A DNA stretch of 64,000 nucleotides from positions 1-64,000 of IMG/VR virus record IMGVR_UViG_3300037108_000012. One strand, 5' to 3'. Position numbers and translations under genes: made by a program. Below the pieces are notes generated by a model. It searched no databases, was not told the DNA's origin, and saw only the letters and a program-made list of their open reading frames with translations. Source of the DNA: a virus. Shown here piece by piece: positions 42,711 to 58,391 of the stretch (positions are counted from its first letter, which is position 1; each line of letters opens with the position of its first letter).

Positions 42711-42723
42711 GGAGCAATGAGAC

Positions 42724-43194
42724 GTGGAGTTTGAGCATATTACACCTGCTGAATGGGCTTACTTCGCTGGCATTATAGATGGCGAGGGATGTATAAATAT
42801 CCACGCCCAAAAATCAAGAAAAGGAGAAAAAGTATTTGTATATTACACCCTTTTCTTGGTTGTGGGTAACACATCATACTCAATGCTTAAATGGTTGCAT
42901 GATAGATTTGGAGGAAGTTTCGTCCCAAGAGGAAATACTGTAACTCAAAAACAGATATGGCATTGGGGTGTGGCGTCTCAACAAGCAGAGAATCTGCTCA
43001 GGAATATATTGCCATATCTTGTTGCTAAAGTGGATCAAGCTGAATTGGCTCTTCAATTCCGCGACTCCTACAAAGGTCTAAAACCATGTGGGAGGAGACC
43101 ACTTCCGATAGAAATATCTGAATTTCGAGGAAAATGCAAAATTGAATTAAGCAGAATAAAGAATCCAAACGAATCGAAGGAGGATGTAGCGTGA
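42724..43194 (+). CDS. Free-standing LAGLIDADG homing endonuclease
   Basis: WAYFAGIIDGEGCI...ILPYLVAK. Confidence 0.88.
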   Translation: MEFEHITPAEWAYFAGIIDGEGCINIHAQKSRKGEKVFVYYTLFLVVGNTSYSMLKWLHDRFGGSFVPRGNTVTQKQIWHWGVASQQAENLLRNILPYLVAKVDQAELALQFRDSYKGLKPCGRRPLPIEISEFRGKCKIELSRIKNPNESKEDVA

Positions 43195-44429: not shown

Positions 44430-44440
44430 GAGGAAACAAA

Positions 44441-44827
44441 ATGGCACAATATTCAGGTCCAGGAACAGCGACGTTAATACGCCAAGGAGAACAGAAATAC
44501 TTATTCCTCAACGATACTGTATTTGTTGGGGAGTCTAGTTTGGCCTATATGATTGAGCGTAATCCGGGAATTTTCTATCCGTGGGGAATGTCGTTTGATA
44601 TGGCGTTTAGCGGAGCACCAGGGACGTTTGAGATTGATATTCAAACTGCGGATATAGACCAAGATTCTCACTATGTGACGCTCAACAGTTTGACGACGGG
44701 GAGTTTGAATACTTCGAATGTTGGAAGGGTTGAGTTGCCTAATTTCTGGGCGAAGTATGTTCGTGTAAAGGTAGTATCCTTTGCGAATTATGCAACGGTA
44801 AATTTGACAGTTTTGTTGACGAGGTAG
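44441..44827 (+). CDS. Structural protein (beta-rich)
   Basis: IDIQTAD...AKYVRV pattern; GGAGG RBS. Confidence 0.65.
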   Translation: MAQYSGPGTATLIRQGEQKYLFLNDTVFVGESSLAYMIERNPGIFYPWGMSFDMAFSGAPGTFEIDIQTADIDQDSHYVTLNSLTTGSLNTSNVGRVELPNFWAKYVRVKVVSFANYATVNLTVLLTR

Positions 44828-44831
44828 GACA

Positions 44832-46748
44832 ATGAAAAGGATTTTTGTTTTTCTTTCGACGATACTAATGTTTGGTGCTGCGTCTTTGGCATTAAACGGG
44901 CAGACTGTTGTCGGAAACTTTATAGCGACTTCTTTTTCATCTGGGAGTGTTCTTCCATCTACATGTTACGGAAGTTCTGTGTTTACGCTGACTACGACAT
45001 GGCTCCCGTATTATTGCAATGGTGGAGTTTATGTAGCGTTTGGGACTGGAGCACCAGCAACTACTGCTGCAAATTTAACTAATGGTTCTGTAGGAGCACA
45101 GCCCTATCAGACCGCAGCCAGCACAACAGCATTTGTCTATCCAGCTACCGATCTTCAGATGCTTACGCTGGACTTGAACCGCACAGATAGTTATACGGAA
45201 GATGGTACGATTGAGCGCCCATACAAAAACCTTCCTACTTTGGTTATACCAAGTACAGGGTTAGCTTCGATCTTTGCGAGTCCTAATGCCTCTTATTCCA
45301 CGTCAACAGCGACAACTCTTCCTGCTATCCCGCTCACGATTTACGGTAATAACTCTACGTGGACTTTCTCTGGTGGGCTGACAGTCAACTCTCTTCCGAC
45401 TACGATCTACGACCTTAATACTGTGGGAAATACGACTTACTCAACCTGCGGAAGCACAATTCGTAGCGAGCGACATGGGGGTAGTTATAGCGGTGGAAAC
45501 ATAACCCTAGGCGCGGGCTGCTACACGCATTTCTACGGCGTGAATCTGAGCGGGAACAGCTACAACCTTACAGCAAACGGGCTGCTTTACGGCGAAGCAC
45601 TAACCGGCAGTATGGGAATTAAGTCTGAAGGGTCAAGCGCAGTCCTTGCGCTTTATAACCCAAACATAACGAAGACAAGCGGCTACAACATTGACATGAC
45701 TTCAGGGGGGCAGCTACTTTTTAACGGTGGGATTCTGAATACAGTAGCGGGAACCGCAAACGTCTACCTACCAGTCGCCAATACCTCATCTACGGCACAC
45801 TTGATTTCAGGTTTGATTACCGGAACGGGAAATGGCGTAAACTGCGTCAACGGTACAACTACCTACGTTGTTTACGGGTTCAATCTCGCGCCGATTACGA
45901 ACTGCACTTTAGTTCCCGGCTATCAGGGATCGACTAATTTTCTTGGGCCAGTTACTGCAAACTCGGTTACGTCCTCTACGGCAACGCAACTCACTGTTCA
46001 GTCCGGGACGACCGGCGCGGCAACCTTCGATAGTGGCACAACTGGTGCGGTCAACATAGCAACAGGAGCAGGCTCAAAAGTCGCCACGCTTGGGAACTCG
46101 TCTAATAGCTCCACTCAGATTTTAGGGTCGTATGTGTACATAGGAAGTGGTCAGACGTCTGGTTCGATAAACATTGGAGGGAGCGCGGCTGCGACCGGAG
46201 GAGTTAACATTGCTCCTGGAACGGGGGCGCAAACTGTTTCTATCGCAACCACAGCGACAGGCGTAAAAACCGTAAATGTCGGCAATACGGTAAGTGGCTC
46301 AAAGGTCAACATAGCCGGTGAAATCGATGGTGTAGCGGCGGGAGCGGGGTACGTCGGGGAAGTTTTGTCATCCTGCATCGTGCGTGGCAGTGGCACGGCG
46401 CTGACTTCGGCATCCACCATCAACTTTCTTACGCTATCGTTAACGGCTGGCGATTGGGACGTGATGGGAAACGTGAATCTTGTTGGGGCGGCATTAACAG
46501 CATCCAATGGAAACTTTGCTAACAGCATCACCACTACGAGCGCAACAGTTAGCTCAGATGGTTCTGAGGTTCTTGCACCCACTTTGACCATGACGACGTG
46601 GACGGGATACAACTCAGTTGTGCTCCCCCGCAAGGTGGTCAACGTCTCGGCAACGACTTCCACTTATTTGGTAGTCAACTTTCAAGGCACCATCACATCT
46701 GGCACAGGCACGTTGTGGGGCTGCATGACGGCGCGTAGAGTTCACTAA
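44832..46748 (+). CDS. Fibre/spike-like beta-helix protein with Sec signal peptide
   Basis: MKRIFVFLSTILMFGAASLALNG|Q; DGTIERPYK; AAGAGYVGE; SLTAGDWDV. Confidence 0.75.
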   Translation: MKRIFVFLSTILMFGAASLALNGQTVVGNFIATSFSSGSVLPSTCYGSSVFTLTTTWLPYYCNGGVYVAFGTGAPATTAANLTNGSVGAQPYQTAASTTAFVYPATDLQMLTLDLNRTDSYTEDGTIERPYKNLPTLVIPSTGLASIFASPNASYSTSTATTLPAIPLTIYGNNSTWTFSGGLTVNSLPTTIYDLNTVGNTTYSTCGSTIRSERHGGSYSGGNITLGAGCYTHFYGVNLSGNSYNLTANGLLYGEALTGSMGIKSEGSSAVLALYNPNITKTSGYNIDMTSGGQLLFNGGILNTVAGTANVYLPVANTSSTAHLISGLITGTGNGVNCVNGTTTYVVYGFNLAPITNCTLVPGYQGSTNFLGPVTANSVTSSTATQLTVQSGTTGAATFDSGTTGAVNIATGAGSKVATLGNSSNSSTQILGSYVYIGSGQTSGSINIGGSAAATGGVNIAPGTGAQTVSIATTATGVKTVNVGNTVSGSKVNIAGEIDGVAAGAGYVGEVLSSCIVRGSGTALTSASTINFLTLSLTAGDWDVMGNVNLVGAALTASNGNFANSITTTSATVSSDGSEVLAPTLTMTTWTGYNSVVLPRKVVNVSATTSTYLVVNFQGTITSGTGTLWGCMTARRVH

Positions 46749-46767
46749 GGACATAGGAGAGAACAGA

Positions 46768-49700
46768 ATGAAAAAGATTATCGCGCTAGGATTTTTATTT
46801 GTCGCGTCTTTGGCTTATAGCCAGACAGCGGTTCTACCTGTCTACGATTGCGTCCAGAATGGGGTTCAAGCAGTTACTAGCGGGTTGAAGTCTAGCAACT
46901 ACCAGCTTGGAGTAGTGCCATATTGCCAGGTTACCGTGTTTCTAACAGGAACGACCACGATAGCAACGACGAATCCTCAAACTCCATTACAAGCAAAATC
47001 TGATGGTTCTATTCCTCCGATCTATGCAACTACGGGAGTTGGATATGATGTAAAGTTTAGTGGAGGAATATATCCAAATGTTTATACGACGCCTGTCACG
47101 TTGACAGATGTACAGGTTGGGGGAAGTGGTCTTACTGCCCCAGTGCTCATTTCCCAAGGCGGCACGGGTCAGACCACGCTGCCAGCGGCGCAAGCGGCTC
47201 TCGGCATCATTGGGCCGACTTACAATGTGATGGACCCGAAATACGGAGCGTGCGGCAACTGGAATGGCTCGACCGGCTGCGATGATACCGCAGCAATCCA
47301 AGCGGCTTTTAATGATTGCTATAATAATGCAAACTCTCCACAAGGCGGCATAGTCGAGTTCCCTGGCCAGCATAATTACAAAATAACTTCGACCATCAAT
47401 GGACTAGACGGATGCCGCATTGAAGGGACCATTGGCAATATAAACGGCGGTTATGGTCCTCCTGAAATCGTTGAAGTGTTTCCATCGCAAGGTGTGACTG
47501 CCACGGTTACTGGTTTTACCGTCACCCGAAACTGCACCACGGGCGGCTCCGGTTGCACATACACGGCAGCTTTCCCGTCTGATCGGGGAGGCATTGGAGT
47601 TCAGAACAGACTCGCTCCGTATGTGGTTTCTTTCACCGGAACAAACTCATACACGGCAAATCAGTGGGTGGAAATAAGTGGTTGCTCGACAGCGGGAGGA
47701 CTCGGCCTGAATAGATCGGTGTTGCAAGTCGCCTCCTCTACGGGTACGGGTTTTGTGGCAGTCGCTCCCGAATCTGGAATATCGCTTGGAACTTTCGCTG
47801 ATAACTGCACAGTCACTTCGCGCAACGTGGTGCTTGCATTTGACGGGAGTGCCCGGTATGAGCAAGAAGTAAAAGACATTGAAGTCGCAACCTACGATGC
47901 GAATACCATTGGAATCCTCTTTGGTAGCCGCGTTGATACAGGGACACGAGTTTATAACACATGGGTTGCCGGAACATCGGAATACAGTTATTATTTCGCA
48001 CAGGGAGGAATCAACGTAGATTTTGACAAAGGGTGGCGTGCGGATAGAGCGCAACAAGGAGGGATTTACTGGCGTATTGGTGGCGGCGACGATTTATCTC
48101 TGCTCAATGGAACGGAGGATAATACAAGTACAGCATCCGCATCGGGGCCAATGATTGTTTTGGACGGGGAAGCCAGTTGTGGACTTATGCTTTTGCATGT
48201 GGAAAACGTCAAAATGGAGATCAATACCTCAATTCAACCAGGCGAGGGTGTTGTTACCATGTATGATTGCCCTCTTGGTGCTAATTATCCGCAATTTCGC
48301 ATCAGTTTTGATGAGGTGTTTCTTGCTCCATCCACAACGTCCACGGCAGGTTTTAACTTCACAACTCTGTCGATGATTCCTGCCAGTGGGAATAGTCTGA
48401 AGTTTACTGCTATAAATACCGATTTGCAGTCTGGTACGGGGGCCAACACGACACAGCCGTTCATCGGAATTCCGGAATTAACAGCGCACTCAATTGCAGG
48501 GAGTCATGGAAACACCCCTCTGCTGGCATACGGGAACTCGAATATATCGAGTGGTCAGTCCGTAATGGACGCTGCACCAAACGAATTATTCGGTGACACG
48601 AACATAGATCAGTTATGGCAATATGGCATCAATGCCTCTGATTTTCTGTACACTGACACAGCATTTACAGCATTGGCAACAGGCACCACTTTGTATAAGG
48701 GGCAGATTATTGCACCACCCACATACTGGGATGTGGCGTCTCCTACGCGCTATGCGTTACAAGTGGTTAAAGCCACAGGTACGACAGGCACCCCAAACAG
48801 CGGGTCTACAACCTGCTCCGCTCCAGGGTCAACAAATGTGCTGACATGCACAAGCGCTACAGACCTTACAGTGGGGCAGGTGCTTTCAGCCGGGACCTGC
48901 GGGAGCAGAACGATTAACCTGATAGATGCAACCAATCCAAGCTCGGTGAATATCTATGGTGCAGGCAACTGGAATGCCTGCACTGGGCAAACCCTTGGAT
49001 TTTTAGCGCCTACATTGGGTCCAGAGATACAACTGCTCACCAAGAGGTCAGCAGCGCCTACGACCGGCACATGGGTGGCAGGGGATGAGGTGCAGAACGA
49101 CGGCAGTATCACAAACGTATCTACGACGAGTGGCTGGCAATGCACGGTCAGTGGAACCCCTGGCACATGGATTGCGCAAGCGGCGGGTGGCGTGTCCTCA
49201 ATTACAGCCGCAGATGGCACGATGACCGTCACGCCTACGACGGGACCGGCCACTGTAGCTGTAAACCTGGCGGGCGCATTTACGTGGACTGGCAGTCAGG
49301 TATTGGGTAACACGAGCAGCCTGCTCATTGGTTCAGGCGCATCAGTCATCTCTAATGCTAATTTTGTGCTTCGTCCCTACACCCCAGCAATCAGCGGCAC
49401 AAACGTTAACGGGCCGAACTTGTCTTTTATCGCAGCCGGATACCCGACAGGCGGACCGAGTGCTTTTGCATCGATCAACTGCTCCGCAGTGATAACAAAC
49501 ACGGTGCAGACCCCAATTACCACGCTAAAATGTACAGGAACCAATAGCGGGAGTTTGGCTTCAACATTCGGCGCTGACTTTAGTTTATTGACAGCGGGAT
49601 TCGTTGTACCAAGCACGTTCTCTATGAGCGGGTGCGGTGCTAGCCAGTACGTGAAGGGGGATGGGACAGGATGCGGAACACCTAGTGGGGCCGGTACTGT

Positions 49701-50586
49701 GATTACGAGCGGCTCCCCGGCCAGCGGGAACATCGCAGTGTTCTCCAGCAGCACGGCGATTACCGCAGCCACGGCGGCGCAAGTGGGAGCGCTGCTCAAT
49801 TTGACCCAGTACGGCATTGTCTACAGCACGGGGTCGAGCGGCGCTCCGGGAACCATTCTGCCTAGCTCGTGGACAACAGGACACACGTTCGTCCCTGCAT
49901 GGCAGCCGAGCGGGTCCGCGCTGGCTCCGGTAGTCGTGGATATGACATACGCGGCGGCGCTCTCGTACACGCCAGCGAATCAGTCCACCACGATCAATGG
50001 TCACCCGCTGAGCAGCAATGTGACGGTGAGCGCATCGGACCTTACTACTGGCACGCTACCGCACGCGCAGTTGCCCACATTGCTCAGTGGAGACATTCCC
50101 AACAATGCAGCGAACACGAGCGGCACAGCGGCGAATCTGAGTGGCACCCCAGCGCTTCCGAATGGCGTTACAGCCACAACGCAGAGCGCTGGCGATAACA
50201 GCACGAAGCTGGCGACTACGGCCTATATCGATGGGACGTTTGGAGCAGGCCACAGACCATGGGCGTGCGATACCGGCGTCGGCGACGGATTAAATGCGAT
50301 CACGGCAGGAACCTATCTTCAGACCATGTGCCAAAACACAACTGGCGTTTCAGTGACGCTGACGGGACTCAGTTGCTACATCGACAGCGGCTCTAGTTCC
50401 ACCATGAATGCGGCAGGCAACACGTTGGGAGCGCTGTTGACAGGTGCGGTGACGTGCAGCACGTCGTTTTCGGCGGGAACACAAAGTGCAAACGTGACGC
50501 TCACGAACGGCGACTACATCAAATTCACCTTTGTGGCAGATGGCACAGCCAAACAGACAACCTGGGTTGTGAAAGGAACTTACTAA
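46768..50586 (+). CDS. Tailspike/fibre-like protein (pectate-lyase-3-like beta-helix) with Sec signal peptide
   Basis: MKKIIALGFLFVASLAYS|Q; YNVMDPKYGA...DDTAAIQAA; ISQGGTG; DNSTKLATTAY. Confidence 0.8.
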   Translation: MKKIIALGFLFVASLAYSQTAVLPVYDCVQNGVQAVTSGLKSSNYQLGVVPYCQVTVFLTGTTTIATTNPQTPLQAKSDGSIPPIYATTGVGYDVKFSGGIYPNVYTTPVTLTDVQVGGSGLTAPVLISQGGTGQTTLPAAQAALGIIGPTYNVMDPKYGACGNWNGSTGCDDTAAIQAAFNDCYNNANSPQGGIVEFPGQHNYKITSTINGLDGCRIEGTIGNINGGYGPPEIVEVFPSQGVTATVTGFTVTRNCTTGGSGCTYTAAFPSDRGGIGVQNRLAPYVVSFTGTNSYTANQWVEISGCSTAGGLGLNRSVLQVASSTGTGFVAVAPESGISLGTFADNCTVTSRNVVLAFDGSARYEQEVKDIEVATYDANTIGILFGSRVDTGTRVYNTWVAGTSEYSYYFAQGGINVDFDKGWRADRAQQGGIYWRIGGGDDLSLLNGTEDNTSTASASGPMIVLDGEASCGLMLLHVENVKMEINTSIQPGEGVVTMYDCPLGANYPQFRISFDEVFLAPSTTSTAGFNFTTLSMIPASGNSLKFTAINTDLQSGTGANTTQPFIGIPELTAHSIAGSHGNTPLLAYGNSNISSGQSVMDAAPNELFGDTNIDQLWQYGINASDFLYTDTAFTALATGTTLYKGQIIAPPTYWDVASPTRYALQVVKATGTTGTPNSGSTTCSAPGSTNVLTCTSATDLTVGQVLSAGTCGSRTINLIDATNPSSVNIYGAGNWNACTGQTLGFLAPTLGPEIQLLTKRSAAPTTGTWVAGDEVQNDGSITNVSTTSGWQCTVSGTPGTWIAQAAGGVSSITAADGTMTVTPTTGPATVAVNLAGAFTWTGSQVLGNTSSLLIGSGASVISNANFVLRPYTPAISGTNVNGPNLSFIAAGYPTGGPSAFASINCSAVITNTVQTPITTLKCTGTNSGSLASTFGADFSLLTAGFVVPSTFSMSGCGASQYVKGDGTGCGTPSGAGTVITSGSPASGNIAVFSSSTAITAATAAQVGALLNLTQYGIVYSTGSSGAPGTILPSSWTTGHTFVPAWQPSGSALAPVVVDMTYAAALSYTPANQSTTINGHPLSSNVTVSASDLTTGTLPHAQLPTLLSGDIPNNAANTSGTAANLSGTPALPNGVTATTQSAGDNSTKLATTAYIDGTFGAGHRPWACDTGVGDGLNAITAGTYLQTMCQNTTGVSVTLTGLSCYIDSGSSSTMNAAGNTLGALLTGAVTCSTSFSAGTQSANVTLTNGDYIKFTFVADGTAKQTTWVVKGTY

Positions 50587-51374
50587 TGAAAAAGCTAACA
50601 TCTATCCTTCTTCTTTGGATGCTGCTCTTCGTGCAGCAGGCTGCGTTCGGTCAGCAGATTATTTCCGGGCGGCATCGGAAGATATTTACGGCCACCGGCA
50701 GCCCAACTTACGTCGGCTACACCTACTGCCCCAGAACATATAGCGGCTCAACGGCCACGTCCACGGCTACCTGTGGTGGCGGAGGTACTTTGACTGTTGC
50801 TGTTGGGGATGTAATTGTAATGGAGTGCGGAACTGACACTTATAGTGTAGGGCAGTCGGTTGTAAACCTATCGGACAGCAACGCCAATAGCTACACACTA
50901 GGAGGAGATACCAGCAGCGCGTCTTATTACAGGGAATATAGCCGAGGCGGGTGGGCGGTTGCTTCTACGGCAGGAGCTACAAACTTTATTTGTACGATGA
51001 CCAATGCGACAGGCGATGTCAACTTTGCGGTGGTTGTTTACAGAGGGCTTCTTGGCACCGTCGATACATCTTTGGCCAGCAATCTTTACCCTAATTCAGG
51101 GTCATTCTTGACATCATCTTTTACCACGACGGTCAAAGACCTTGTAATAGTTTGCGCTTCTTCGGGAGATGCAAACGCAGGTGGTATCTGGATGGCAGGA
51201 CTCATACAAGGGTCAACTGGTTCCGTTGTAGGCGTAAGTGGAGCAACACTAAGTACTAGCTCATTAACAGGATGCGAGGCCCGACTGAATAGTAGTTTTG
51301 GCAGCGGCACAGCAGCAATGACATACGGAGGGCGTGGAGATTATGGGTACCAAGTACTCGCCTTCAAGTATTAG
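50586..51374 (+). CDS. Secreted beta-rich fibre-associated protein
   Basis: Start at TAATG overlap; MKKLTSILLLWMLLFVQQAAFG|Q. Confidence 0.7.
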   Translation: MKKLTSILLLWMLLFVQQAAFGQQIISGRHRKIFTATGSPTYVGYTYCPRTYSGSTATSTATCGGGGTLTVAVGDVIVMECGTDTYSVGQSVVNLSDSNANSYTLGGDTSSASYYREYSRGGWAVASTAGATNFICTMTNATGDVNFAVVVYRGLLGTVDTSLASNLYPNSGSFLTSSFTTTVKDLVIVCASSGDANAGGIWMAGLIQGSTGSVVGVSGATLSTSSLTGCEARLNSSFGSGTAAMTYGGRGDYGYQVLAFKY

Positions 51375-51598
51375 TTGACAGCGGGGCAAATTACAACGGC
51401 TTGCGGAACAGCGCTATAGGGCAAGCAGAGCATGGACGTGGGATGGGATATTCACACAGAGTGTCCCAACGCTCGGAACCACGGTAGTATTGGCAGGAAC
51501 AAACTTTGCCGCTGTTGGCGGCGTTTCTGTGCAGATGTTTGTGATTAAGTAGCACCCGTTAGAGTCCAGTTGGAGATTTTCAGGAATGGGGTAAGCGA

Positions 51599-51880
51599 AT
51601 GTCGGAAACGACGATAGCGGAATTGGCAAAAGAGGCGCGCGAAGACGACCGGGCATGGAAGCGTCAGATCGAAGGGACAATCGAGGGCGTGCGCAACACC
51701 ATCAATGAACACGGTCAGACACTTGCGGAAATCAAAGCCAATACATCACCGTTGCCAGATTTACACCGTCGCCTCCGAGACACCGAAAGCTCCACGAGTA
51801 ATTTGTGGACAGTGCTCAGAGTCACATGGGCTGTGATTGTGGCTCTTGTCGGCGCAACATGGCTTTGGACCAAGCATTAA
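51599..51880 (+). CDS. Coiled-coil + C-terminal TM protein (holin/XhlA-like)
   Basis: Architecture and position at start of lysis region. Confidence 0.55.
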   Translation: MSETTIAELAKEAREDDRAWKRQIEGTIEGVRNTINEHGQTLAEIKANTSPLPDLHRRLRDTESSTSNLWTVLRVTWAVIVALVGATWLWTKH

Positions 51881-52154
51881 AGGAGACCCACTGTGACCGT
51901 AACCGTGACCGTGATGGAACCAGCTTGCAAGGCGGATGCAGTTGAGGCCCAACGCGCCTCCAGAATCATCAACGGACTCTACAACGCCTGCCACATCAAA
52001 GCCATGCGTGCCATCCTGAAAGAGATTGGTAGACCTGCCTGGATATGGGCCAGCCGGAACCAGTTATTCGCGGCAATCATCACCGCGCGGCAGGACGCTT
52101 CCATGTTGAACCCGAAGCGCGACGCGGAGCTGGCAGAAAACCTGAAAAAGGCTA

Positions 52155-52184
52155 TTGACAGATGGGTGTGATTGTGCTTACAAT
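52155..52184 (+). promoter_or_regulatory. Sigma70-type promoter with inverted repeat over -10
   Basis: TTGACA-18nt-TACAAT; ATTGT-gctt-ACAAT at 52171-52184. Confidence 0.7.
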
Positions 52185-52191
52185 TGCATAC

Positions 52192-52326
52192 ATGGCTGAC
52201 GATTGCATGGTGCGAGTGCCCCGGCACCTGTTCGAGGAGATCAGGCGATTGGCCCACCCTGCGACAGCGGCGGCGTATTTGCGCCATGTGATCGAGCAGC
52301 ATATCGAGCAAGCACGGAAGAAGTGA
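52192..52326 (+). CDS. Small ribbon-helix-helix-like protein (44 aa), probably leaderless
   Basis: MADDCMVRVPRHLFEEIRRLAHPATAAAYLRHVIEQHIEQARKK; ATG 7 nt after the -10 box. Confidence 0.6.
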   Translation: MADDCMVRVPRHLFEEIRRLAHPATAAAYLRHVIEQHIEQARKK

Positions 52327-52331
52327 GACGG

Positions 52332-52432
52332 TCACGCAAGACGGGCAAACTTTCCATAGTGCGCAGTTGCCGCTTCGCAGTAGAGTTTGTAGGCTTCAAC
52401 AGCGGTGGAACGATGGCCCAAACGAAAACTTT
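52332..52432 (-). pseudogene. AP2-domain C-terminal remnant of an HNH-AP2 endonuclease
   Basis: FRLGHRSTAVEAYKLYCEAATAHYGKFARLA resembles the C-terminus of 54396-54866. Confidence 0.6.
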
Positions 52433-52465
52433 GTCGCCCCCCACGCGGGGGGCGTGGATTGAAAC
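52433..52465 (+). CRISPR. Solitary type I-C CRISPR repeat (no array, no cas genes)
   Basis: GTCGCCCCCCACGCGGGGGGCGTGGATTGAAAC: GTCGC 5' end, GC hairpin, GTGGATTGAAAC 3' end. Confidence 0.85.
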
Positions 52466-52717
52466 AATCATCGGCAGGGCGGTGAAAGGCCGTCTGACAG
52501 CATGGAAAGACAGCAACTTGCGCGGGAGCGCCCGGACTCCGAACAGGACATCGGGATCGGAACTCACCAAATGCGGCCCGCGCAAAGAGATTGAGTCGCT
52601 GGCGTGGATGTGCTTGCAGGCTGCGGCGAAAGCCGGATACCGACCACGACGGTAGCCTGGAAATTAAGCGGCGGTGAGCAGCGATGCAAGCCGCCGCAAA
52701 GCAAAGGAGCAAGCATC

Positions 52718-52939
52718 ATGAAGAACTGGAAAACAACTACGGCGGGGCTGCTAGTGGCATTAGCATACGGCCTGCAAAACTATAACGGAGCAAACACTTG
52801 GCAGGGATATGCTGTATGTTTCTTCCTTGCTGCCGGTGGATTCTTCTCCAAGGATTACAACACGCATTCAACGGAGGCCCAAGTGCAAACGGCCACGGAT
52901 GATGCCAAGGTTGCCACGCTGGCTGCTGTCAACAAGTGA
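52718..52939 (+). CDS. Holin (putative)
   Basis: MKNWKTTTAG..., two hydrophobic segments, SKD motif; AAGGAG RBS. Confidence 0.65.
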   Translation: MKNWKTTTAGLLVALAYGLQNYNGANTWQGYAVCFFLAAGGFFSKDYNTHSTEAQVQTATDDAKVATLAAVNK

Positions 52940-53350
52940 GGCCGCAATGACCAGTACATCATCGTGCATTATCATCTACCCATGCACCGCAGCATTAGGG
53001 ATGCTTGCCCTTCTTAATGCTGGCTTCAAGCAACGGGGCAAGCAGTGAGGCCGCGATGAGACATATTCTCTCTATGGTCCTACAATTGCTTTGCTTTGCG
53101 ACTATCATGGGGCTTTGTGGGTTTTCGCTATGGCGCGATTTTTTGCGTTTCCGCAATATGTGGCGTGAAATTAAGGAATACCGAGATTCGGACCAGTAAC
53201 CAGAAGCAAAGGAAGTGAGGCCGAGATGAATCGCAAATCAGTCTACCTGCTTGTCGGCATCACGTATTGGCTCTGCGTCATTGTCGCATTTGCGAAGATG
53301 ATGCAGGGTATCGGAAACCAGTAACGCAGCACAACCCGCAAAGGAGACCT

Positions 53351-53863
53351 ATGAAGCGAATCTCTGTATTTACCATCATCATGCTGGCAGCTTTCGCTAT
53401 GCACGCGCAGACCACCACCCCATCATTATCCGCGACTACTGACGCCGTGGGCATCCACGAAGCGGGCGCGTGGGCCGCTGCCACGCATATTACTGAGTCG
53501 CTGGACTTGGTTGATTTCGGCGCGAAGAAGACGAACCATTTCTATGTCGATGGTCATGAGATTTTGGCCGAAGCGTCCAACTTCACGCTCTATACTGGGG
53601 GAGGTTCCATTCAACCGGACTTGAGCGCCTTATGGAAAAAGACAAACATTTCCTCAGACAACATCAGCATTTTGTTTTCCGTTTCTGCCGGCGACAAGAT
53701 TCCGACCGGGATAGGATCGGCTCACATTGCTGGTTTGTTCAGCGGGTCTTTCCGCTATCGAGCATCCAGCACTTTGACGTGGAACACGCTGCAAGCCGGG
53801 GCGATCCTGAGCGCTGGCAAGGTAAGCCCGTTCGTTTCCACGGGCCTCGTCAAGTATTTTTAG
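53351..53863 (+). CDS. Secreted, possibly outer-membrane beta-barrel protein
   Basis: MKRISVFTIIMLAAFAMHA|Q; amphipathic strands; C-terminal ...GLVKYF. Confidence 0.6.
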   Translation: MKRISVFTIIMLAAFAMHAQTTTPSLSATTDAVGIHEAGAWAAATHITESLDLVDFGAKKTNHFYVDGHEILAEASNFTLYTGGGSIQPDLSALWKKTNISSDNISILFSVSAGDKIPTGIGSAHIAGLFSGSFRYRASSTLTWNTLQAGAILSAGKVSPFVSTGLVKYF

Positions 53864-53871
53864 GAGGCACC

Positions 53872-54099
53872 ATGGCAATTCTCACAGAACTGGCTGGTTT
53901 GGTCACTGATGCCCGCGCTCTTGTTCAGGCGTGGACGCTAGTGGCTCCCAGCGTCAAAGCGGCTGCGGACGCGGCAACGACCGACATAATCAAACTCGGC
54001 ACGACCGAAGACACTATCACTGCGGAGATTCCTCAAGCCCAGGCCAGCGTGCAAGAGGTTGCGGACGCGGCGAAGAACTTCAAAATCAAGGTGCTTTGA
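53872..54099 (+). CDS. Small helical hypothetical protein
   Basis: ATG at 53872 after AGGAGG. Confidence 0.6.
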   Translation: MAILTELAGLVTDARALVQAWTLVAPSVKAAADAATTDIIKLGTTEDTITAEIPQAQASVQEVADAAKNFKIKVL

Positions 54100-54259
54100 T
54101 GGCACCCACAGAGGTCCCAAGATGAAGTGGTGGCAGCGTATAGGATGGCTGATTACCTGGCCAATCGGCAAGCTGACAGGAATCAGCAGGATCAACAAAC
54201 CATAGGGGCTGCTGCATGAGGCATGGGGCCCGGCCCCGAATAAGTTGCGCGGTTGATAT

Positions 54260-54344
54260 GGTGGGTTGCCAGAGAGGTTTAATGGCGTGACGTGCAAAGG
54301 TTAAATCCTGTCACGATTCGTTGGTCCGAATCCAACACCCACCA
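54260..54344 (+). tRNA. tRNA-like element (GCA at anticodon position) with anticodon-loop insertion
   Basis: Acceptor GGTGGGT/ACCCACC, D arm GCCA/TGGC, anticodon stem GTGAC/GTCAC, T arm GTTGG-TCCGAAT-CCAAC. Confidence 0.6.
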
Positions 54345-54363
54345 GAGAACCGCGCATTTTCAC

Positions 54364-54397
54364 AGCCGCCTGTTCTCATGTGCAGGCGGCTTTTGTT
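54364..54397 (+). terminator. Rho-independent terminator
   Basis: agccgcctg-loop-caggcggct-tttgtt. Confidence 0.7.
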
Positions 54398-54866
54398 ATT
54401 CAAAACAAGCAAATTCTCCAAACAACTCTTTGGCCTTCTCGCAATATCTGAGATGAGCCTCTAGCTCAGAAGAGAAAGTTCCGAGACTGATTGCTTTACC
54501 ATTATGAAAAATGGTTGACCAATATCTTTTACCTTGCCTGTATGCCCCTTTTAGTGATCCGTCGTTTCTCTTTCCTTTAGAGTTTCTGTTATTTTGTGAT
54601 ACTGTTGCAATACGAAGATTAAATCTCCTATTATCTAAGGTATTATGATTTATATGATCCCCTTTGAGGGGAGAATCTTTTTCTATCCCAAGGATTATTC
54701 TGTGCATACGAATAGATGGACTATACCCTCCGTTTCTTTTATCGTTTCTCACGGCATAAAATAAGCCCCTTCTTGAATGCGCGTACCATTTCCACTGCAT
54801 CAGCCAATCGTAATCAGCGGCATCAACAATGGCAACCTTTATAACAAGGAGATGAGATGAATTCAA
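54396..54866 (-). CDS. HNH-AP2 homing endonuclease (N-terminus possibly truncated)
   Basis: VAIVDAADY, DHINHNTLDNRRFNLR, AP2 LGTFSSELEAH...FGEFA. Confidence 0.8.
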   Translation of the reverse strand: MNSSHLLVIKVAIVDAADYDWLMQWKWYAHSRRGLFYAVRNDKRNGGYSPSIRMHRIILGIEKDSPLKGDHINHNTLDNRRFNLRIATVSQNNRNSKGKRNDGSLKGAYRQGKRYWSTIFHNGKAISLGTFSSELEAHLRYCEKAKELFGEFACFE

Positions 54867-55288
54867 GCCAAAACTGCCGGAATCAGATAATGCAATGGGA
54901 AGGCACCAAATTGTCTATCTATTCAGATGCAAATGGTTTTCCAACAGTGGGGATAGGCCACAAACTCACGCCCGCAGAGATTGCCACGCACGCCTATGCG
55001 AATGGCATCACAACCGGGCAGGCTGTGATTCTCTTCGACGATGACATTGCGAGCTTCGATGCGCAGATCAATTCGCTCTTCGACGATAGACATTTGACGC
55101 AGGGGCAGTTCGATGCTCTTGTAAGTTTCTGCTACAACAATGGGTTTGGGCGACTGCGCACGATGCTCTCGCATGGGCTGGCGAATGTGCCGAACGAGTT
55201 GCCGCGTTGGGTGTACGCCGGGACGGTAAAGCTCCCCGGCCTGGTCACGCGGCGTGCGCAAGAGGTTGCGTGGTGGAATCAGAAGTAA
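54857..55288 (+). CDS. Endolysin, GH24 lysozyme
   Basis: WEG..LSIYSDANGFPTVGIGH, QFDALVSFCYN, GLVTRRAQE. Confidence 0.92.
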   Translation: MNSSQNCRNQIMQWEGTKLSIYSDANGFPTVGIGHKLTPAEIATHAYANGITTGQAVILFDDDIASFDAQINSLFDDRHLTQGQFDALVSFCYNNGFGRLRTMLSHGLANVPNELPRWVYAGTVKLPGLVTRRAQEVAWWNQK

Positions 55289-55423
55289 AATCCAAAAAAG
55301 AGACATGGTGTAGCGCCATAGCAGCGGAATAAAAACTTGCATTTTGATTGAAAGTTTGTGTTAAACTGATTCCATCGGGAGAGGAGAGCGCGGGCTTGTC
55401 TCTATTTTTGTTTGGAGGTTGAG

Positions 55424-55624
55424 ATGCCATCAAGCGTTGTTATGGAAGAATTTCGGGAAGGAAAACTTCACTCTGGAAAGAAAGTGAAGGGGAAGAAACG
55501 TAAGTTAGTTCATAATAAAAAGCAAGCTAAGGCTATTCTTCTCTCGTATCTCCGTAAAGAGGGGAAAATAGTACCGCGCAAAGGAAATAACACAAATCAA
55601 AAGAAACGTGTGGCTGGAAAATGA
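55424..55624 (+). CDS. Small basic DUF6496-like protein ending KRVAGK
   Basis: VMEEFREGKLHSG...NKKQAKAI. Confidence 0.7.
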   Translation: MPSSVVMEEFREGKLHSGKKVKGKKRKLVHNKKQAKAILLSYLRKEGKIVPRKGNNTNQKKRVAGK

Positions 55625-55782
55625 GTGAAATCGAATCATGCACACTTGAGAGCGTAGGAAAAGGACGCAAGAGGGTTGCGGGGAAAATGAAGACGAGAAT
55701 GCCTTACGCGAAAAAAGGAAGTAAATTTGAGTTTGCAAAGAAAAGCGGAAAAGGTAAGCGTTTTTCTACGAAGAAAGGTTAA
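55621..55782 (+). CDS. Small basic protein (53 aa) containing KRVAGK
   Basis: Manual translation MSEIESCTLESVGKGRKRVAGKMKTRMPYAKKGSKFEFAKKSGKGKRFSTKKG; ATGA overlap. Confidence 0.65.
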   Translation: MSEIESCTLESVGKGRKRVAGKMKTRMPYAKKGSKFEFAKKSGKGKRFSTKKG

Positions 55783-55784
55783 AG

Positions 55785-56654
55785 ATGAAGAGATTTTTGT
55801 TGATTTCTCTCCTTTTGGTATGCGGGTTAGTTGCACACGGACAAGCCTGCTCGCCTGTGAACGGAATGACTTGCACCCCGAACCTCAACTTGTACCTTCC
55901 TCCGCTCAACTATCAGAACTGGAACATCGCTCTCAATGCAAACTTCAACTTGCTCGATACCTCGTCGGCTAATTGGGTAAAGTTGAACGCCTTAAACACG
56001 TTTACCCAAATTCAGACTATGCCAGGTCTGGTTATTACTGGAGCGCCGTCAGGAACTTACGCCAAAGCGGATGGTACAGGCTACGGGACTCCTGCGGGAA
56101 ACACCCCATGTACTATAGGACAGTTAGCTTACTATGCATCTGGTGGAGCGGTACAAGCCTGCTTGAATCTAGGGACAGGATTAACTATCACAAGTGGAAC
56201 GCTCAATGCGGCAGGAGGTAGCGGGGGCATCACCCAACTGACAGGAGATGTTAACGCAACCGGACCTAACATTGCAACGGCAACATTGACGGCGAGTGGA
56301 GTGACAGCGGGAAGCTATACCGGGGCAACAATCACGGTAGACGCAAAGGGACGAGTGACGGCTGCGGCAACAGGGTTCACTTCGGGAAGTAATACTAACG
56401 GTTACTGGGAAAAAAGCCCGACAGGGCACATCCATCAATGGGGATTAACCACTGTTTCCAGCTCTACAACAACAATCACATTTCCGACACCGTTTACAAT
56501 TTTGGCCTCAATAATTCCTAGCGGTAGTCCATTAGGAACCACATCGCAACCATCAGCAGATAATCCTCCGTTGTTTTGGAATGTGGGGTTGAATGGTATG
56601 TCAATAAACACCAATAGCTCGACGGGGGCTAGTTGGACAGCCGACGGATATTAG
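55785..56654 (+). CDS. Short tail-fibre-like protein with Sec signal peptide and gp53-like C-terminal domain
   Basis: MKRFLLISLLLVCGLVAHG|Q; TPNLNLYLP...ALNANF; ITVDAKGRVTAA; HIHQWG...TITFPTPF. Confidence 0.8.
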   Translation: MKRFLLISLLLVCGLVAHGQACSPVNGMTCTPNLNLYLPPLNYQNWNIALNANFNLLDTSSANWVKLNALNTFTQIQTMPGLVITGAPSGTYAKADGTGYGTPAGNTPCTIGQLAYYASGGAVQACLNLGTGLTITSGTLNAAGGSGGITQLTGDVNATGPNIATATLTASGVTAGSYTGATITVDAKGRVTAAATGFTSGSNTNGYWEKSPTGHIHQWGLTTVSSSTTTITFPTPFTILASIIPSGSPLGTTSQPSADNPPLFWNVGLNGMSINTNSSTGASWTADGY

Positions 56655-56661
56655 GAGAAAA

Positions 56662-58053
56662 ATGGCTGGATCATACACATGGCTTCGACTTTCTGATGCT
56701 ATTTCTCAGTTAGGACAGAGGCTTAATATAACACCATCCGCAACGTCCTTCTGGACGATAGATGAGTTGCAAGTGTACATTTCGACAGCATTACGCCAAT
56801 TCAACTCTTTAACGGGAATGTGGAGACAGGACTTTAATTTTCAATCCACACAGGTCTGGAATTCGTTGGGTTCTATTCTCGGAAGTCCTAGACAAAGAAC
56901 TCTGTTAGATACGTACTGCTACACAGAGATGGAGATGATGCTGTTGGAGCCTCCGACAGGACAAGTTTGGACTGGAACAAACCAATTCCAGATTTCCGAT
57001 CTTTCACAGGCATTACAGAGACGGCGTGATGAGATGATCCAGATAGGTAATCTCAATCAGCAGCTAATTCCAGAAATAGATTTAACTCCCAACGAGATTA
57101 GGACAGAACTTCCCGATAATGTGATAGACGTTGCTCGTGTCCGTTACATTCCGGGAGGCCAATTATCGGGGGGGTACGGTACGGGTGGATACGGACAGGG
57201 AGGTTATGGAGTAGGGAATTTTACGAACGGTCCTAGCCCTGTAACTCTTTATCGAGACGATACAGTAGCTAACGAATTTTTCAATGCACCTCTTTACCAA
57301 CTTTCATCAGGAACTCCACAAACATTTTCTTTGTCGTCAGAGCCTCCGTTATCTTTTCAGGTAGACATTCCCCCCGCACAACCAGGAACATACGAGGCGA
57401 TAGTTTTACAGTCAGGATCACCGTTTAATCCTCCTACTCCTACGCTACTGAACATCCCAGATGATATGGCGTGGGTATTGGAGTATGGCGCATTGGCAGA
57501 CCTTCTAGGACGCGAGAGCGAGGCTACTGATAGGGAGAGGGCCGCATACGCTCAGAAGCGTTACATGGACGGCTTACAGTTGATGCTCAAGACTCCGTGG
57601 ATCGAACTAGGACGAGTAAACGGAGTGGCGGTAAGCTGCGATTCTATAAAAGACACTGATTCGTATGATCCTGAGTGGGACTCAAATCCTACGGGCTTTG
57701 GTCCTGTGATTGTGACGGGAGGAATAGACTTCATAGGCGCTCCCTTGAACGCCAACATCGGTTTAACCTGTCTCGGCAATGCGCCCGTGCCAACTTTTGG
57801 AAAGGATTTTATCCAGATAAGCCGCTCGGATGCAGAAATCATGTTTAATTTAGCACAATCTAGGGCGCTTTTTAAGTGCGGAGGAGCAGAATTTAAGGCT
57901 TCGCTCGATCTAGAGAAGCAAGCAATACAGACATGTGCAGCAGAAAATTCACGTCTAAGAAGCTGTGGAGCTTACTCTGACGTGCTCGTGCAAAGAGGAC
58001 AGGCGCAGGAGCGTTCAATGAACAGGTACAATGTGAAGGGGGATAAGGGATAA
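56662..58053 (+). CDS. Adaptor/tail structural protein
   Basis: FWTIDELQVYI...; IPDDMAWVLEYGALADLL. Confidence 0.65.
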   Translation: MAGSYTWLRLSDAISQLGQRLNITPSATSFWTIDELQVYISTALRQFNSLTGMWRQDFNFQSTQVWNSLGSILGSPRQRTLLDTYCYTEMEMMLLEPPTGQVWTGTNQFQISDLSQALQRRRDEMIQIGNLNQQLIPEIDLTPNEIRTELPDNVIDVARVRYIPGGQLSGGYGTGGYGQGGYGVGNFTNGPSPVTLYRDDTVANEFFNAPLYQLSSGTPQTFSLSSEPPLSFQVDIPPAQPGTYEAIVLQSGSPFNPPTPTLLNIPDDMAWVLEYGALADLLGRESEATDRERAAYAQKRYMDGLQLMLKTPWIELGRVNGVAVSCDSIKDTDSYDPEWDSNPTGFGPVIVTGGIDFIGAPLNANIGLTCLGNAPVPTFGKDFIQISRSDAEIMFNLAQSRALFKCGGAEFKASLDLEKQAIQTCAAENSRLRSCGAYSDVLVQRGQAQERSMNRYNVKGDKG

Positions 58054-58367: not shown

Positions 58368-58391
58368 ATAATGCTTGCATAATCATGCGCT

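What the first reader, a model, noticed from the sequence alone, without database searches (positions are those of the whole stretch)
44832..56654. Tail fibre/spike-like proteins that all carry Sec signal peptides (periplasmic folding of virion appendages?)
Seen: four fibre/spike-like proteins (44832, 46768, 50586, 55785) start with classic n-h-c signal peptides, each with Gln at the predicted +1. Three of them contain tail-fibre hallmarks (DDTAAIQAA beta-helix entry, GGTG, DNSTKLATTAY, TVDAKGRVTAA, gp53-like QWG..FP..F), and they carry many scattered Cys. Capsid, adaptor and nozzle proteins lack such signals. Established: tailed phages assemble in the cytoplasm, where disulfides are disfavoured; +1 Gln can be cyclised to pyroglutamate. 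Inference: these receptor-binding parts are exported, oxidatively folded and attached at or after lysis, or they serve as secreted depolymerases or receptor-masking decoys.
Basis: partly seen in the sequence, partly recalled or inferred. Interest (0 to 1): 0.85.

Follow-up and report, generated by a model that had tools for sequence, protein, structure and literature searches.

The report
Phage tail spikes carrying export signals
A soil phage of Acidobacteria, and hundreds of its uncultured relatives, make their host-recognising tail spikes with a classic bacterial export signal, which suggests that these parts mature outside the cytoplasm where the rest of the virus particle is built.

Summary
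Five proteins (starts 44832, 46768, 50586, 53351, 55785) begin with Sec-type signal peptides behind Shine-Dalgarno-like motifs. The window is a 72.9-kb podovirus record, distantly related to the isolated Tunturiibacter (Acidobacteriota) phages Tunturi 1/2. Tunturi 1's syntenic gp12, 13, 14, 16 and 17 carry such signals too; Tunturi 3 and 4, from Tunturiibacter hosts (Tunturi 3 from Tunturi 1's own strain), have none. In the 1272-aa spike, the signal is followed by a ~110-residue domain. That domain is conserved (57-86% identity) in relatives whose distal parts are unrelated. Its predicted fold and profile point, weakly but concordantly, to the N-terminal domain of podophage Pan3's tail spike, solved within the tail complex. 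In 1.84 billion representative proteins it has 554 relatives. Of the best 150, 138 have a signal peptide by my rule, with Gln at +1 in 135 and a small residue at -1 in 135. Best reading (about 0.5): true receptor-binding spikes that are exported, cleaved, folded in the periplasm and docked on spikeless particles once the holin opens the inner membrane. Main rival: exported proteins that never join virions. No proteomics exists, and I found no paper describing this.

The parts
43191..44429 (+). 412-aa adaptor-like tail protein without signal peptide; always the gene just upstream of the spike genes
   Evidence: ESM Atlas: 17 of 30 feature hits are SU10_adaptor (PF24175) clusters at score 0.93; by structure TM 0.56/0.71 to such a cluster. 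hmmscan against Pfam found nothing at E<=0.01. 64-91% identical in 13 related loci.
44441..44827 (+). 128-aa jelly-roll protein, probably a capsid cement or decoration protein
   Evidence: AF2 pLDDT 78. Weak Foldseek matches (E 1e-3 to 4e-3) to YomS, PirA, the phage KHP40 cement protein and a Carin-1 capsid chain.
44832..46748 (+). Spike/fibre 1, 638 aa. Signal peptide is residues 1-20 (nt 44832-44891; alternative site after residue 23). C-terminal half is tail-fibre-like.
   Evidence: PHROG 11393 tail fiber, aa 380-637, E 5e-8. Only the first ~100 aa resemble the corresponding protein of relative L001 (37% identity); the rest is unrelated.
46768..46821 (+). Signal peptide of spike 2 (residues 1-18, cleavage ..AYS|Q)
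   Evidence: AF2 predicts a helix at residues 3-18.
46822..47160 (+). Conserved mature N-terminal beta-sandwich domain of spike 2 (residues 19-131), with Cys28 and Cys53; proposed particle-binding anchor
   Evidence: 57-86% identity in relatives whose distal parts are unrelated. 554 database relatives. Foldseek top hits are the Pan3 and Pam1 tail complexes. The profile finds only Pan3 'Tail spike protein' chains. BFVD hits are spike/fibre proteins.
47161..50586 (+). Variable distal part of spike 2: GGTG collar, right-handed beta-helix with the DDTAAIQAA motif (about residues 150-540), fibre repeats, C-terminal domain
   Evidence: Homologues at 40-50% identity carry PF12708 and are secreted proteins of Terracidiphilus/Acidobacteriaceae. 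No Pfam hit on the window protein itself.
50586..51374 (+). 262-aa exported protein of unknown fold (signal residues 1-22, ..AFG|QQ); accessory, absent from relative G001
51599..52939 (+). Small membrane proteins of the lysis region (93 aa with a C-terminal helix; 73 aa with two helices, holin-like)
   Evidence: The 75-aa homologue in G001 sits next to a lipoprotein and the endolysin.
53351..53863 (+). 170-aa exported protein (signal residues 1-19, ..MHA|QTT) ending in ..LVKYF; possible small outer-membrane barrel
   Evidence: It takes the position of a lipoprotein gene in G001. No family hit.
54857..55288 (+). Endolysin without any signal or anchor, so lysis needs a hole-forming holin
   Evidence: Pfam Phage_lysozyme, E 3e-27. 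N-terminus.
55785..56654 (+). Fibre 4, 289 aa: signal residues 1-19 (..AHG|QAC), fibre-type N-terminus, TVDAKGRVT repeat, Gp53-like C-terminal tip (residues 210-289)
   Evidence: Pfam PF21882. PDB 4mtm 'putative tail fiber protein', E 0.01. 4 close homologues share the signal peptide; 110 of 120 homologues of the tip lack one.
56662..58053 (+). 463-aa conserved structural protein without signal
   Evidence: Syntenic with Tunturi 1 gp30 'structural protein'. Conserved in L012 and G001.
59507..63364 (+). 1285-aa conserved tail protein without signal (nozzle/muzzle-like; identity uncertain)
   Evidence: Identity 95% (G001), 77% (G002), 72% and 82% for the two matched pieces in G004, and 50%, 65% and 46% for the three pieces in G003. 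Atlas gives only leads (crAss muzzle, 0.77-0.81). Syntenic with Tunturi 1 gp31.

Best explanation
The proteins at 44832, 46768 and 55785 are the phage's receptor-binding tail spikes or fibres. The proteins at 50586 and 53351 are accessory exported proteins.

Proposed mechanism:
1. The spikes are made late, from the structural operon, as Sec preproteins.
2. They are threaded unfolded across the inner membrane of the diderm acidobacterial host.
3. Host signal peptidase I cuts them at a small -3/-1 site. In spike 2 this exposes a near-invariant Gln that starts the conserved N-terminal domain.
4. They fold and trimerise in the periplasm, where Cys28-Cys53 and other pairs can oxidise.
5. Heads with portal, adaptor and the large tail protein are built spikeless in the cytoplasm.
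6. When the holin opens the inner membrane, which it must do because the endolysin has no signal, the two compartments mix.
7. The spikes dock through their N-terminal domain on the adaptor/tail.

Before that moment, the periplasmic beta-helix enzyme may already trim the cell's own polysaccharide receptor.

Shown here: the signals, their conservation, the mosaic architecture and the variable-cassette position.
Inferred: export, cleavage, disulfides, docking and its timing.
For: 1. Textbook signals behind SD-like motifs.

2. They are conserved as a property, not as a sequence. Against five related phage loci (L001, L003, L010-L012), the leader is 24-61% identical, the next ~107 residues 46-86% (57-86% in the four closest) and the rest 10-29%.

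3. In the 150 best of 554 database relatives of residues 1-140:
- 138 are signal-like by my rule, 8 are N-truncated and 4 fall below threshold (3 of those 4 look like signals by eye).
- Among the 138, +1 is Gln in 135 and -1 is A/G/S in 135.
- The two Cys are present in 141 of 142.
A mere hydrophobic helix would not need a peptidase site.

4. These genes are the host-range cassette. Against relative G001, DNA matches at 67-99.6% identity over most of the shared length. There is no match in 44843-54926 except the N-domain (46772-47185, 74.5%), and none in 55429-56968. The 1285-aa tail protein stays 95% identical.

5. The N-domain looks like a particle-bound spike N-terminus:
- Foldseek top hits are Pan3 tail-complex chains (prob 0.99, E 0.016) and the Pam1 tail machine (prob 0.90).
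- The P22 head-binding domain appears further down.
- An independent profile search of PDB sequences finds only Pan3 'Tail spike protein' chains (E 0.35). The motif sits at chain residues 27-64, which leaves no room for a leader.
- The best 30 BFVD hits include many annotated pectate-lyase-superfamily, tail-spike or tail-fibre proteins of phages.

6. Proteins with this N-domain sit on phage-sized contigs: 28 of 28 have a longest contig of at most 82 kb. Homologues of the beta-helix alone reach contigs of 996 kb.

7. The isolated podovirus Tunturi 1 has the same arrangement: gp12, 13, 14, 16 and 17 carry signals, and four of these have 10-32 Cys.

8. The trait belongs to the lineage, not the host. 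No signals were seen among 24 proteins of Tunturi 3 (same host strain as Tunturi 1) or 21 proteins of Tunturi 4 (another Tunturiibacter species), by reading the printed N-termini. 110 of 120 homologues of the gp53-like fibre tip lack one.

9. The endolysin lacks a signal. From established knowledge of lambda-type lysis, this implies large holin lesions.

Recalled, not from a call: P22 tailspikes and T7 fibres can be added to spikeless particles in vitro.
Against: - No virion proteomics exists for any member.
- No tailed phage is known to me to assemble in two compartments.
- Signal prediction rests on my own crude rules, not on SignalP.
- The structural and profile matches to Pan3 are weak (E 0.016 and 0.35).
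- The beta-helix part is 40-50% identical to secreted host proteins, which fits a free-enzyme role equally well.
- Bdellovibrio MAT fibres have the same plan, with a signal peptide followed by a conserved ~130-aa beta-rich domain and a mosaic trimeric fibre. They work on a cell surface, not on a virion.
- Cys content in this window is not clearly higher than in the other structural proteins.
- Dilution at lysis could make late docking inefficient.
Confidence: 0.5

Rival explanations
1. The proteins are exported but never join virions. They act as free periplasmic or surface glycanases and adhesin-like fibres. They could strip or mask the infected cell's receptors, which would give superinfection exclusion and stop progeny being trapped on debris. 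They could loosen the exopolysaccharide for release, or decorate the cell surface as Bdellovibrio MAT fibres do. The virion's real receptor binder would then be one of the conserved tail proteins.
For: - Beta-helix homologues are signal-bearing proteins of Acidobacteriaceae. Two lie in cellular neighbourhoods on contigs of 318-526 kb.
- Pantoea WceF is an exported (Tat) tailspike-like glycanase that trims its own cell's polysaccharide.
- MAT fibres share the plan of signal, conserved N-domain and mosaic fibre.
- P. gingivalis phages encode Q-rule signal proteins that their authors read as envelope modifiers.
- Variable 'moron' cassettes also sit near lysis genes.
Against: - The N-domain occurs on phage-sized contigs only (28 of 28), directly behind the adaptor gene.
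- It resembles spike N-termini solved inside tail complexes.
- A free enzyme has no evident need for a conserved N-terminal module with swapped distal parts.
- In relatives such as L010 this protein is the only fibre-like gene seen in the stretch fetched. The large conserved tail protein does not vary like a host-range determinant.
Confidence: 0.27
2. The leader is not used for export during infection. The spikes fold in the cytoplasm and assemble there. The N-terminal helix is either kept inside the tail or removed by another protease. The signal-like look would then be a relic of genes captured from secreted host enzymes.
For: - Signal predictors are known to flag capsid proteins that are cut by prohead proteases (passage).
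- The beta-helix is shared with secreted host proteins.
- AF2 draws the leader as a helix.
Against: - A relic would decay. Instead 138 of the 142 non-truncated relatives keep n/h/c character, 135 of those 138 keep a small -1 residue and 135 of 138 keep Gln at +1.
- The leader sequence itself drifts, which argues against specific packing contacts.
- The leader is fused to a phage-specific N-domain, not to the host-like part.
- A chimera joins the leader of spike 1 to the N-domain of spike 2 (P0004), so leaders behave as interchangeable modules.
Confidence: 0.1
3. Two pools are made from one gene. One is an exported pool that acts as an enzyme or decoy. The other is a cytoplasmic pool that arms the virions, arising by inefficient export or by an internal start.
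For: Soluble and virion-bound forms of phage depolymerases are known in other phages (recalled, not from a call). Sec capacity may saturate late in infection.
Against: - There is no plausible internal start with an SD motif in the first 110 nt of 46768.
- The near-invariant Gln19-Thr-Ala at the processed end argues that the cleaved form is the functional one.
Confidence: 0.08

Closest known systems
Tunturiibacter phages Tunturi 1 and 2 (isolated podoviruses of Acidobacteriota; PMC11924767, passages read)
   Same: They are the only hits of the capsid protein among 50,697 phage records (26% identity, E 4e-23). The gene order is the same: tail protein, large signal-bearing proteins, lysis genes, ~450-aa and ~1300-aa structural proteins. 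gp12 shares the signal plus N-domain.
   Different: The relationship is distant, and the distal spike parts are unrelated. The paper does not mention the signals (0 hits).
Tail spikes of podophages Pan3, Pam1 and P22, with N-terminal particle-binding domains
   Same: The predicted fold of residues 20-116 matches these best. The profile motif ..Y.TGT..(10-20)..NP..A...G.. matches Pan3 'Tail spike protein'. The mosaic of a conserved N-terminus and a swapped distal part is the same.
   Different: Pan3's domain starts within about 26 residues of the chain's first residue, so it has no leader. Those spikes are taken to fold in the cytoplasm (established knowledge).
Bdellovibrio MAT (mosaic adhesive trimer) fibres (PMC10769870, passages read)
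   Same: [quoted passage not shown]
   Different: They are chromosomal genes of a predator cell and act on its surface or vesicle. Homology of the two N-domains was not tested.
Pantoea stewartii WceF (PMC7949094, passages read)
   Same: An exported trimeric beta-helix glycanase with a tailspike fold.
   Different: It has a Tat signal rather than a Sec signal, it is a bacterial gene in a polysaccharide cluster, and it has no phage anchor domain.
Q-rule signal proteins of Porphyromonas gingivalis phages (PMC10367356, passages read) and the Bacteroidetes Q-rule (PMC5837995, abstract passage)
   Same: Phage proteins with host-style SPase I signals that expose Gln.
   Different: Those are five genes of unknown function in temperate phages of Bacteroidota, not tail spikes. 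The rule is described as specific to Bacteroidetes.

Membership tests
Sec / signal peptidase I (type I) signal peptide | Positively charged n-region, uncharged hydrophobic h-region of about 10-15 residues, c-region with small residues at -3 and -1 | tested here: met
   Met by my own heuristic and by eye for all five proteins. In the spike-2 family 138 of 150 pass, with -1 = A/G/S in 135 of 138. SignalP was not available.
Sec / signal peptidase I (type I) signal peptide | Actual translocation and cleavage | not testable with these tools
   Needs PhoA fusions, fractionation or N-terminal proteomics.
Q-rule substrates (Gln at +1, cyclised to pyroglutamate) | Gln immediately after the cleavage site | tested here: met
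   Met in 4 of the 5 window proteins (44832 probably has Leu). Met in 135 of 138 family members.
Q-rule substrates (Gln at +1, cyclised to pyroglutamate) | Host has a glutaminyl cyclase | tested here: inconclusive
   PF05096 is absent from 3 of 3 Acidobacteriaceae MAGs. The same model also misses Bacteroides thetaiotaomicron in the control set, so the M28-type cyclase is not covered.
Podophage tail spike with N-terminal particle-binding domain | N-terminal domain homologous to one seen bound in a tail complex | tested here: inconclusive
   Foldseek: Pan3 E 0.016 with prob 0.99; Pam1 E 0.042. hmmsearch: Pan3 tail spike E 0.35. The two agree, but both are below usual thresholds.
Podophage tail spike with N-terminal particle-binding domain | Conserved N-terminus with exchanged distal receptor-binding parts among close relatives | tested here: met
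Podophage tail spike with N-terminal particle-binding domain | Presence in the virion | not testable with these tools
   No proteomics in print for Tunturi 1/2.
Pectate_lyase_3 (PF12708) beta-helix glycanases | Pfam model match over the gathering score | tested here: not met
   hmmscan of 46768 gave 0 families at E<=0.01. Homologues at 40-50% identity do carry precomputed PF12708, and the D172-D173-T174..A176-I177 motif is invariant in 16 aligned sequences. So it works like one, but membership is unproven.
Gp53-like_C (PF21882) tail-fibre tip | Pfam model match over the gathering score | tested here: met
   55785 protein residues 210-289: 28.6 bits against a cut-off of 24.9.
SU10_adaptor (PF24175), for the 412-aa protein | Pfam model match | tested here: not met
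   hmmscan gave 0 families. Only Atlas look-alikes (features 0.93; structure TM 0.56/0.71).
Bdellovibrio MAT fibres | Homology of the conserved post-signal beta-rich domain | not tested
   No MAT sequence was at hand. The resemblance is architectural only.

The most novel reading that the evidence does not exclude
A large, mostly uncultured clade of soil podophages (at least 554 protein clusters at the 50% level) finishes its virions across two compartments. Spikeless particles are built in the cytoplasm. The receptor-binding spikes are Sec-exported, cut by the host's signal peptidase to a near-invariant, possibly cyclised, N-terminal Gln, and disulfide-bonded in the periplasm. They dock only when the holin breaches the inner membrane. 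This would be an assembly route not described for tailed phages. It would also let the same protein destroy receptors on the dying cell before arming the progeny.
Probability: 0.45. Interest if true: 0.9.

Novelty: new variant of a known kind. Interest (0 to 1): 0.8.

Why it matters
The absence of signal peptides is routinely used as a mark of phage virion proteins; the Hankyphage paper argues exactly this. Tailed-phage assembly is taught as a cytoplasmic process. Here a whole lineage, which includes two culturable phages of a non-pathogenic soil bacterium, breaks that rule in the proteins that set host range.

If the spikes are virion parts, three things follow:
- It opens a testable new assembly step.
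- It explains how Cys-rich, extracellularly robust spikes can be made.
- Annotation pipelines and host-range predictors that discard signal-bearing proteins will miss the receptor binders of many soil phages.

If they are not virion parts, the lineage still shows phages exporting a variable battery of spike-like proteins, and its true receptor binder is unknown.

The side observation also matters for signal-peptide prediction and for phage-host matching: Acidobacteriaceae appear to favour Gln at +1, a rule so far described as specific to Bacteroidetes.

Tried and rejected
Bacteroidota host. I first suspected this from the ..A|Q sites. I dropped it for two reasons. All 7 organism-named homologues are Terracidiphilus, and 10 of the 12 genome loci are Acidobacteriaceae or Terracidiphilus MAGs. 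The only related isolates infect Tunturiibacter.

Starts downstream of the leaders. I found no SD-backed internal start in 46768, and the SD-like motifs sit before the leader ATGs.

Lipoprotein signals. No lipobox precedes the Cys near +3 in 55785 or in Tunturi gp17.

A general requirement of acidobacterial hosts. Rejected by the controls Tunturi 3 (none of 24 proteins) and Tunturi 4 (none of 21).

Searches that found nothing:
- Megablast of 39000-59000 against phages.
- tblastn of spike 2 and of its N-domain at E<=10 against phages. These found nothing even for Tunturi gp12, so they are not evidence of absence.
- phmmer of spikes 1 and 2 and of the 1285-aa protein against PDB.
- Pfam on 50586, 53351 and the small lysis proteins.

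Other checks:
- 53351 and the positional analogue in L010 are not homologous.
- The complex prediction of adaptor plus three N-domains returned 'no answer' with score 0.00. It is neither for nor against binding.
- The 128-aa neighbour turned out to be a cement-like jelly roll, not a docking protein.
- My first two site-picking rules for the host Q test were too crude. Only the enrichment count is used.
- The stricter signal rule missed spikes 1 and 2, because their mature N-termini are fairly hydrophobic. It was replaced by the rule.

Literature searches for a precedent gave none. The four term sets were:
- signal peptide + tail fiber + bacteriophage + Bacteroidetes.
- tailspike + signal peptide + periplasm + phage.
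- receptor binding protein / signal peptide / phage / virion / Sec translocon.
- phage depolymerase / signal peptide / SignalP / tail spike.
I read only listings and the passages cited. Supplements were closed, and the annotation tables of the Tunturi paper might bear on this.

Full report
WHAT THE WINDOW IS

The window is the first 64 kb of a 72,887-bp linear IMG/VR virus record that CheckV rates 64% complete. It has no tRNA and no near-identical phage in GenBank.

Genes on the + strand from about 14 kb onward include:
- an intein-bearing large terminase (25597), a portal (32996) and a capsid protein (39133);
- a 412-aa protein (43191) whose Atlas look-alikes are SU10-type adaptors;
- a 128-aa jelly-roll protein;
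- the signal-bearing genes of the finding, interleaved with a lysis region (endolysin at 54857);
- conserved structural proteins of 463 and 1285 aa.

The capsid protein hits only 2 of 50,697 phage records, Tunturiibacter phages Tunturi 1 and 2 (26% identity, E 4e-23). These are isolated podoviruses of Acidobacteriota (PMC11924767, passages). All 7 organism-named homologues of the big spike are from Terracidiphilus. 10 of the 12 genome loci found with its alignment lie in Acidobacteriaceae or Terracidiphilus MAGs. The host is therefore most likely an acidobacterium, which is a diderm.

THE OBSERVATION

A fifth exists at 53351. Each leader ATG is preceded by an SD-like motif.

A crude n/h/c-plus-SD rule picks 9 of 197 ORFs in the whole record. 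Six of them lie between 44.8 and 56.7 kb: the five signal proteins and a 73-aa holin-like protein. One is a lipoprotein-like protein at 16318, and two look like false positives.

For 44832 the cleavage site homologous to its relative's ..SYA|QNGQ is ..SLA|LNGQ, so Gln at +1 holds for four of five, not for all.

Fibre hallmarks are real for three proteins:
- 44832: PHROG tail fiber, E 5e-8.
- 46768: beta-helix motif and fibre repeats; homologues carry PF12708.
- 55785: Gp53-like_C over the Pfam cut-off and PDB 4mtm.

The protein at 50586 has none.

CONSERVATION IN RELATIVES

13 related IMG/VR loci were found with the adaptor-like protein. Ten extend past it, and in all ten the next large gene starts with a signal peptide.

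In Tunturi 1 the syntenic gp12, gp13, gp14 ('tail spike'), gp16 and gp17 ('virion structural protein') all do so. Four of them have 10-32 Cys, against 0-7 in the other structural proteins I translated.

Two controls from Tunturiibacter hosts show none: 24 proteins of podovirus Tunturi 3, which infects Tunturi 1's own strain, and 21 proteins of siphovirus Tunturi 4, which infects another Tunturiibacter species.

Of the 120 listed homologues of the 55785 fibre, only 10 are signal-like. These include four proteins that share its N-terminus and its leader, plus a fifth whose leader is cut short by the gene call. The rest have ordinary fibre N-termini.

So the signal is a trait of this phage lineage. 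It is not a trait of the host or of the fibre domains.

ANATOMY OF THE MAIN SPIKE (46768)

Aligned with five related phage loci, the three closest database homologues, one more distant one and Tunturi gp12, the picture for the five phage loci (L001, L003, L010-L012) is:
- the leader is 24-61% identical;
- residues 19-125 are 46-86% identical (57-86% in the four closest);
- everything after about residue 130 is 10-29% identical, that is, unrelated.

Gln19, Thr20, Ala21, Cys28 and Cys53 are invariant in the six phage sequences aligned.

Against relative G001, DNA matches at 67-99.6% identity over most of the shared length. There is no match in 44843-54926 apart from the N-domain (74.5% identity), and none in 55429-56968. 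The 1285-aa tail protein is 95% identical.

G001 has two signal-bearing spikes and lacks the 50586, 53351 and 55785 genes. Spike 1 shows the same mosaic in weaker form.

This is the signature of receptor-binding proteins with a conserved attachment module.

HOW WIDESPREAD IT IS

phmmer of residues 1-140 against 1.84 billion representative proteins gave 554 hits at E<=1e-3 and 267 at E<=1e-10.

Among the best 150:
- 138 are signal-like by my rule, 8 are truncated at the N-terminus and 4 fall just under the threshold or carry odd extensions.
- Among the 138, +1 is Gln in 135, -1 is A/G/S in 135 and the leader median is 19 residues.
- The two Cys are present in 141 of 142.

Total lengths run from 104 to more than 1,800 residues. 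All 28 such proteins for which contig data were returned sit on contigs of at most 82 kb.

WHAT THE N-DOMAIN IS

AF2 with 37 sequences gives pLDDT 77, with a helix at residues 3-18 and then a beta-sandwich at 20-116.

- Foldseek against PDB ranks Pan3 tail-complex chains first (E 0.016, prob 0.99), then the Pam1 tail machine. P22 tailspike head-binding domains appear lower down.
- A profile search of PDB sequences finds only the three Pan3 chains named 'Tail spike protein' (E 0.35). The shared motif sits at chain residues 27-64, which leaves no room for a leader there.
- BFVD hits are overwhelmingly phage spike, fibre and depolymerase proteins.

Each match is weak. Together they point one way.

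MECHANISM

The peptidase-site pattern, the drifting leader and the near-invariant processed end make real export and cleavage the most economical reading.

The spikes' position, mosaicism, phage-only distribution and N-domain fold make them the likely receptor binders. Taken together, the spikes should mature in the periplasm and meet the cytoplasmic particles only after the holin acts. The endolysin's lack of a signal implies a hole-forming holin, from established knowledge of lambda-type lysis. That tailspikes can be added to finished heads in vitro is recalled knowledge (P22, T7), not a result from a call.

I put this reading at about 0.5.

The strongest rival (0.27) is export without virion incorporation. 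It is supported by:
- secreted host homologues of the beta-helix;
- WceF;
- the strikingly similar plan of Bdellovibrio MAT fibres;
- the reading given to Q-rule proteins of P. gingivalis phages.

The complex prediction gave no verdict.

GLN AT +1

The Q-rule is described as specific to Bacteroidetes (abstract passage). The paper does not mention Acidobacteria (0 hits).

In 200 kb of one Acidobacteriaceae MAG, 15 of 59 ORFs with n+h regions have a peptidase-type site followed by Gln. This is the highest enrichment over background among the common residues: 5.4x, against 5.0x for the rare Cys and 0.6-3.2x for the others. Many secreted homologues read ..A|Q as well.

This is suggestive only, because my predictor is crude. 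PF05096 cyclase is absent from 3 of 3 MAGs, but that model also misses Bacteroides in the control set.

NOVELTY

Four literature searches and the Tunturi paper gave no description of signal-bearing tail spikes. One paper uses the absence of signals as a sign of phage origin.

The parts are of known kinds. Their combination, and what it implies for assembly, is new as far as I could search.

Noticed in passing
L038-L047 (one Acidobacteriaceae MAG, 200 kb) and the proteins: Secreted proteins of Acidobacteriaceae seem to favour Gln right after the signal-peptidase site. 15 of 59 candidate signals do so, a 5.4x enrichment that is the highest among the common residues (the rare Cys reaches 5.0x). 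This habit has been published as specific to Bacteroidetes.
   Followed up: partly
window 53351-53863: A 170-aa exported protein ends in ..GLVKYF, which resembles an outer-membrane barrel signal. It sits where relative G001 has a lipoprotein gene in the lysis cassette, so it may be an outer-membrane lysis or exclusion factor. No family hit; not homologous to the analogue in L010.
   Followed up: partly
window 31373-31828: A 151-aa protein just upstream of the portal region has a twin-arginine-like leader (..NRRSFFKF..). The Pfam TAT_signal match scores 16.9 bits, below the cut-off of 22.7.
   Followed up: no
window 16318-16695: A small early-region protein has a lipoprotein-like leader (hydrophobic run ending ..CGC). 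It may be an exclusion lipoprotein.
   Followed up: no
window 25597-29631: The 1344-aa large-terminase-like ORF carries Hint/intein and LAGLIDADG matches (Intein_splicing at 34.2 bits, just under its cut-off of 35.8). This suggests an intein inside the terminase.
   Followed up: no
window 42724-43194 (+), 54396-54866 (-), 38471-39115 (+): Homing-endonuclease-type genes sit between structural and lysis genes: LAGLIDADG_1 (E 8e-4, under its cut-off), HNH_3 (over its cut-off, on the opposite strand), and a 214-aa ORF that is also present in some relatives.
   Followed up: partly
protein P0004: A database relative joins a leader matching the first 20 residues of spike 1 (44832) to the N-domain of spike 2. 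Recombination can therefore occur within or at the end of the signal peptide.
   Followed up: no
window 40488-41333 and 41392-41946: Two neighbouring proteins after the capsid gene share Ig-like stretches (..GGTPPTL..). They give only faint PHROG hits to 'head closure Hc2' and may be decoration proteins.
   Followed up: no
window 9564-10133 (- strand): A 189-aa ORF contains a tandem peptide repeat (..WNG.TYSQRLSV.. repeated). It was seen in the ORF listing only.
   Followed up: no
L015, L016, L022 (Acidobacteriaceae / Terracidiphilus MAGs): Giant signal-bearing beta-helix proteins of 2400-3270 aa lie next to conserved genes that might be phage- or GTA-like. The context was not analysed.
   Followed up: no
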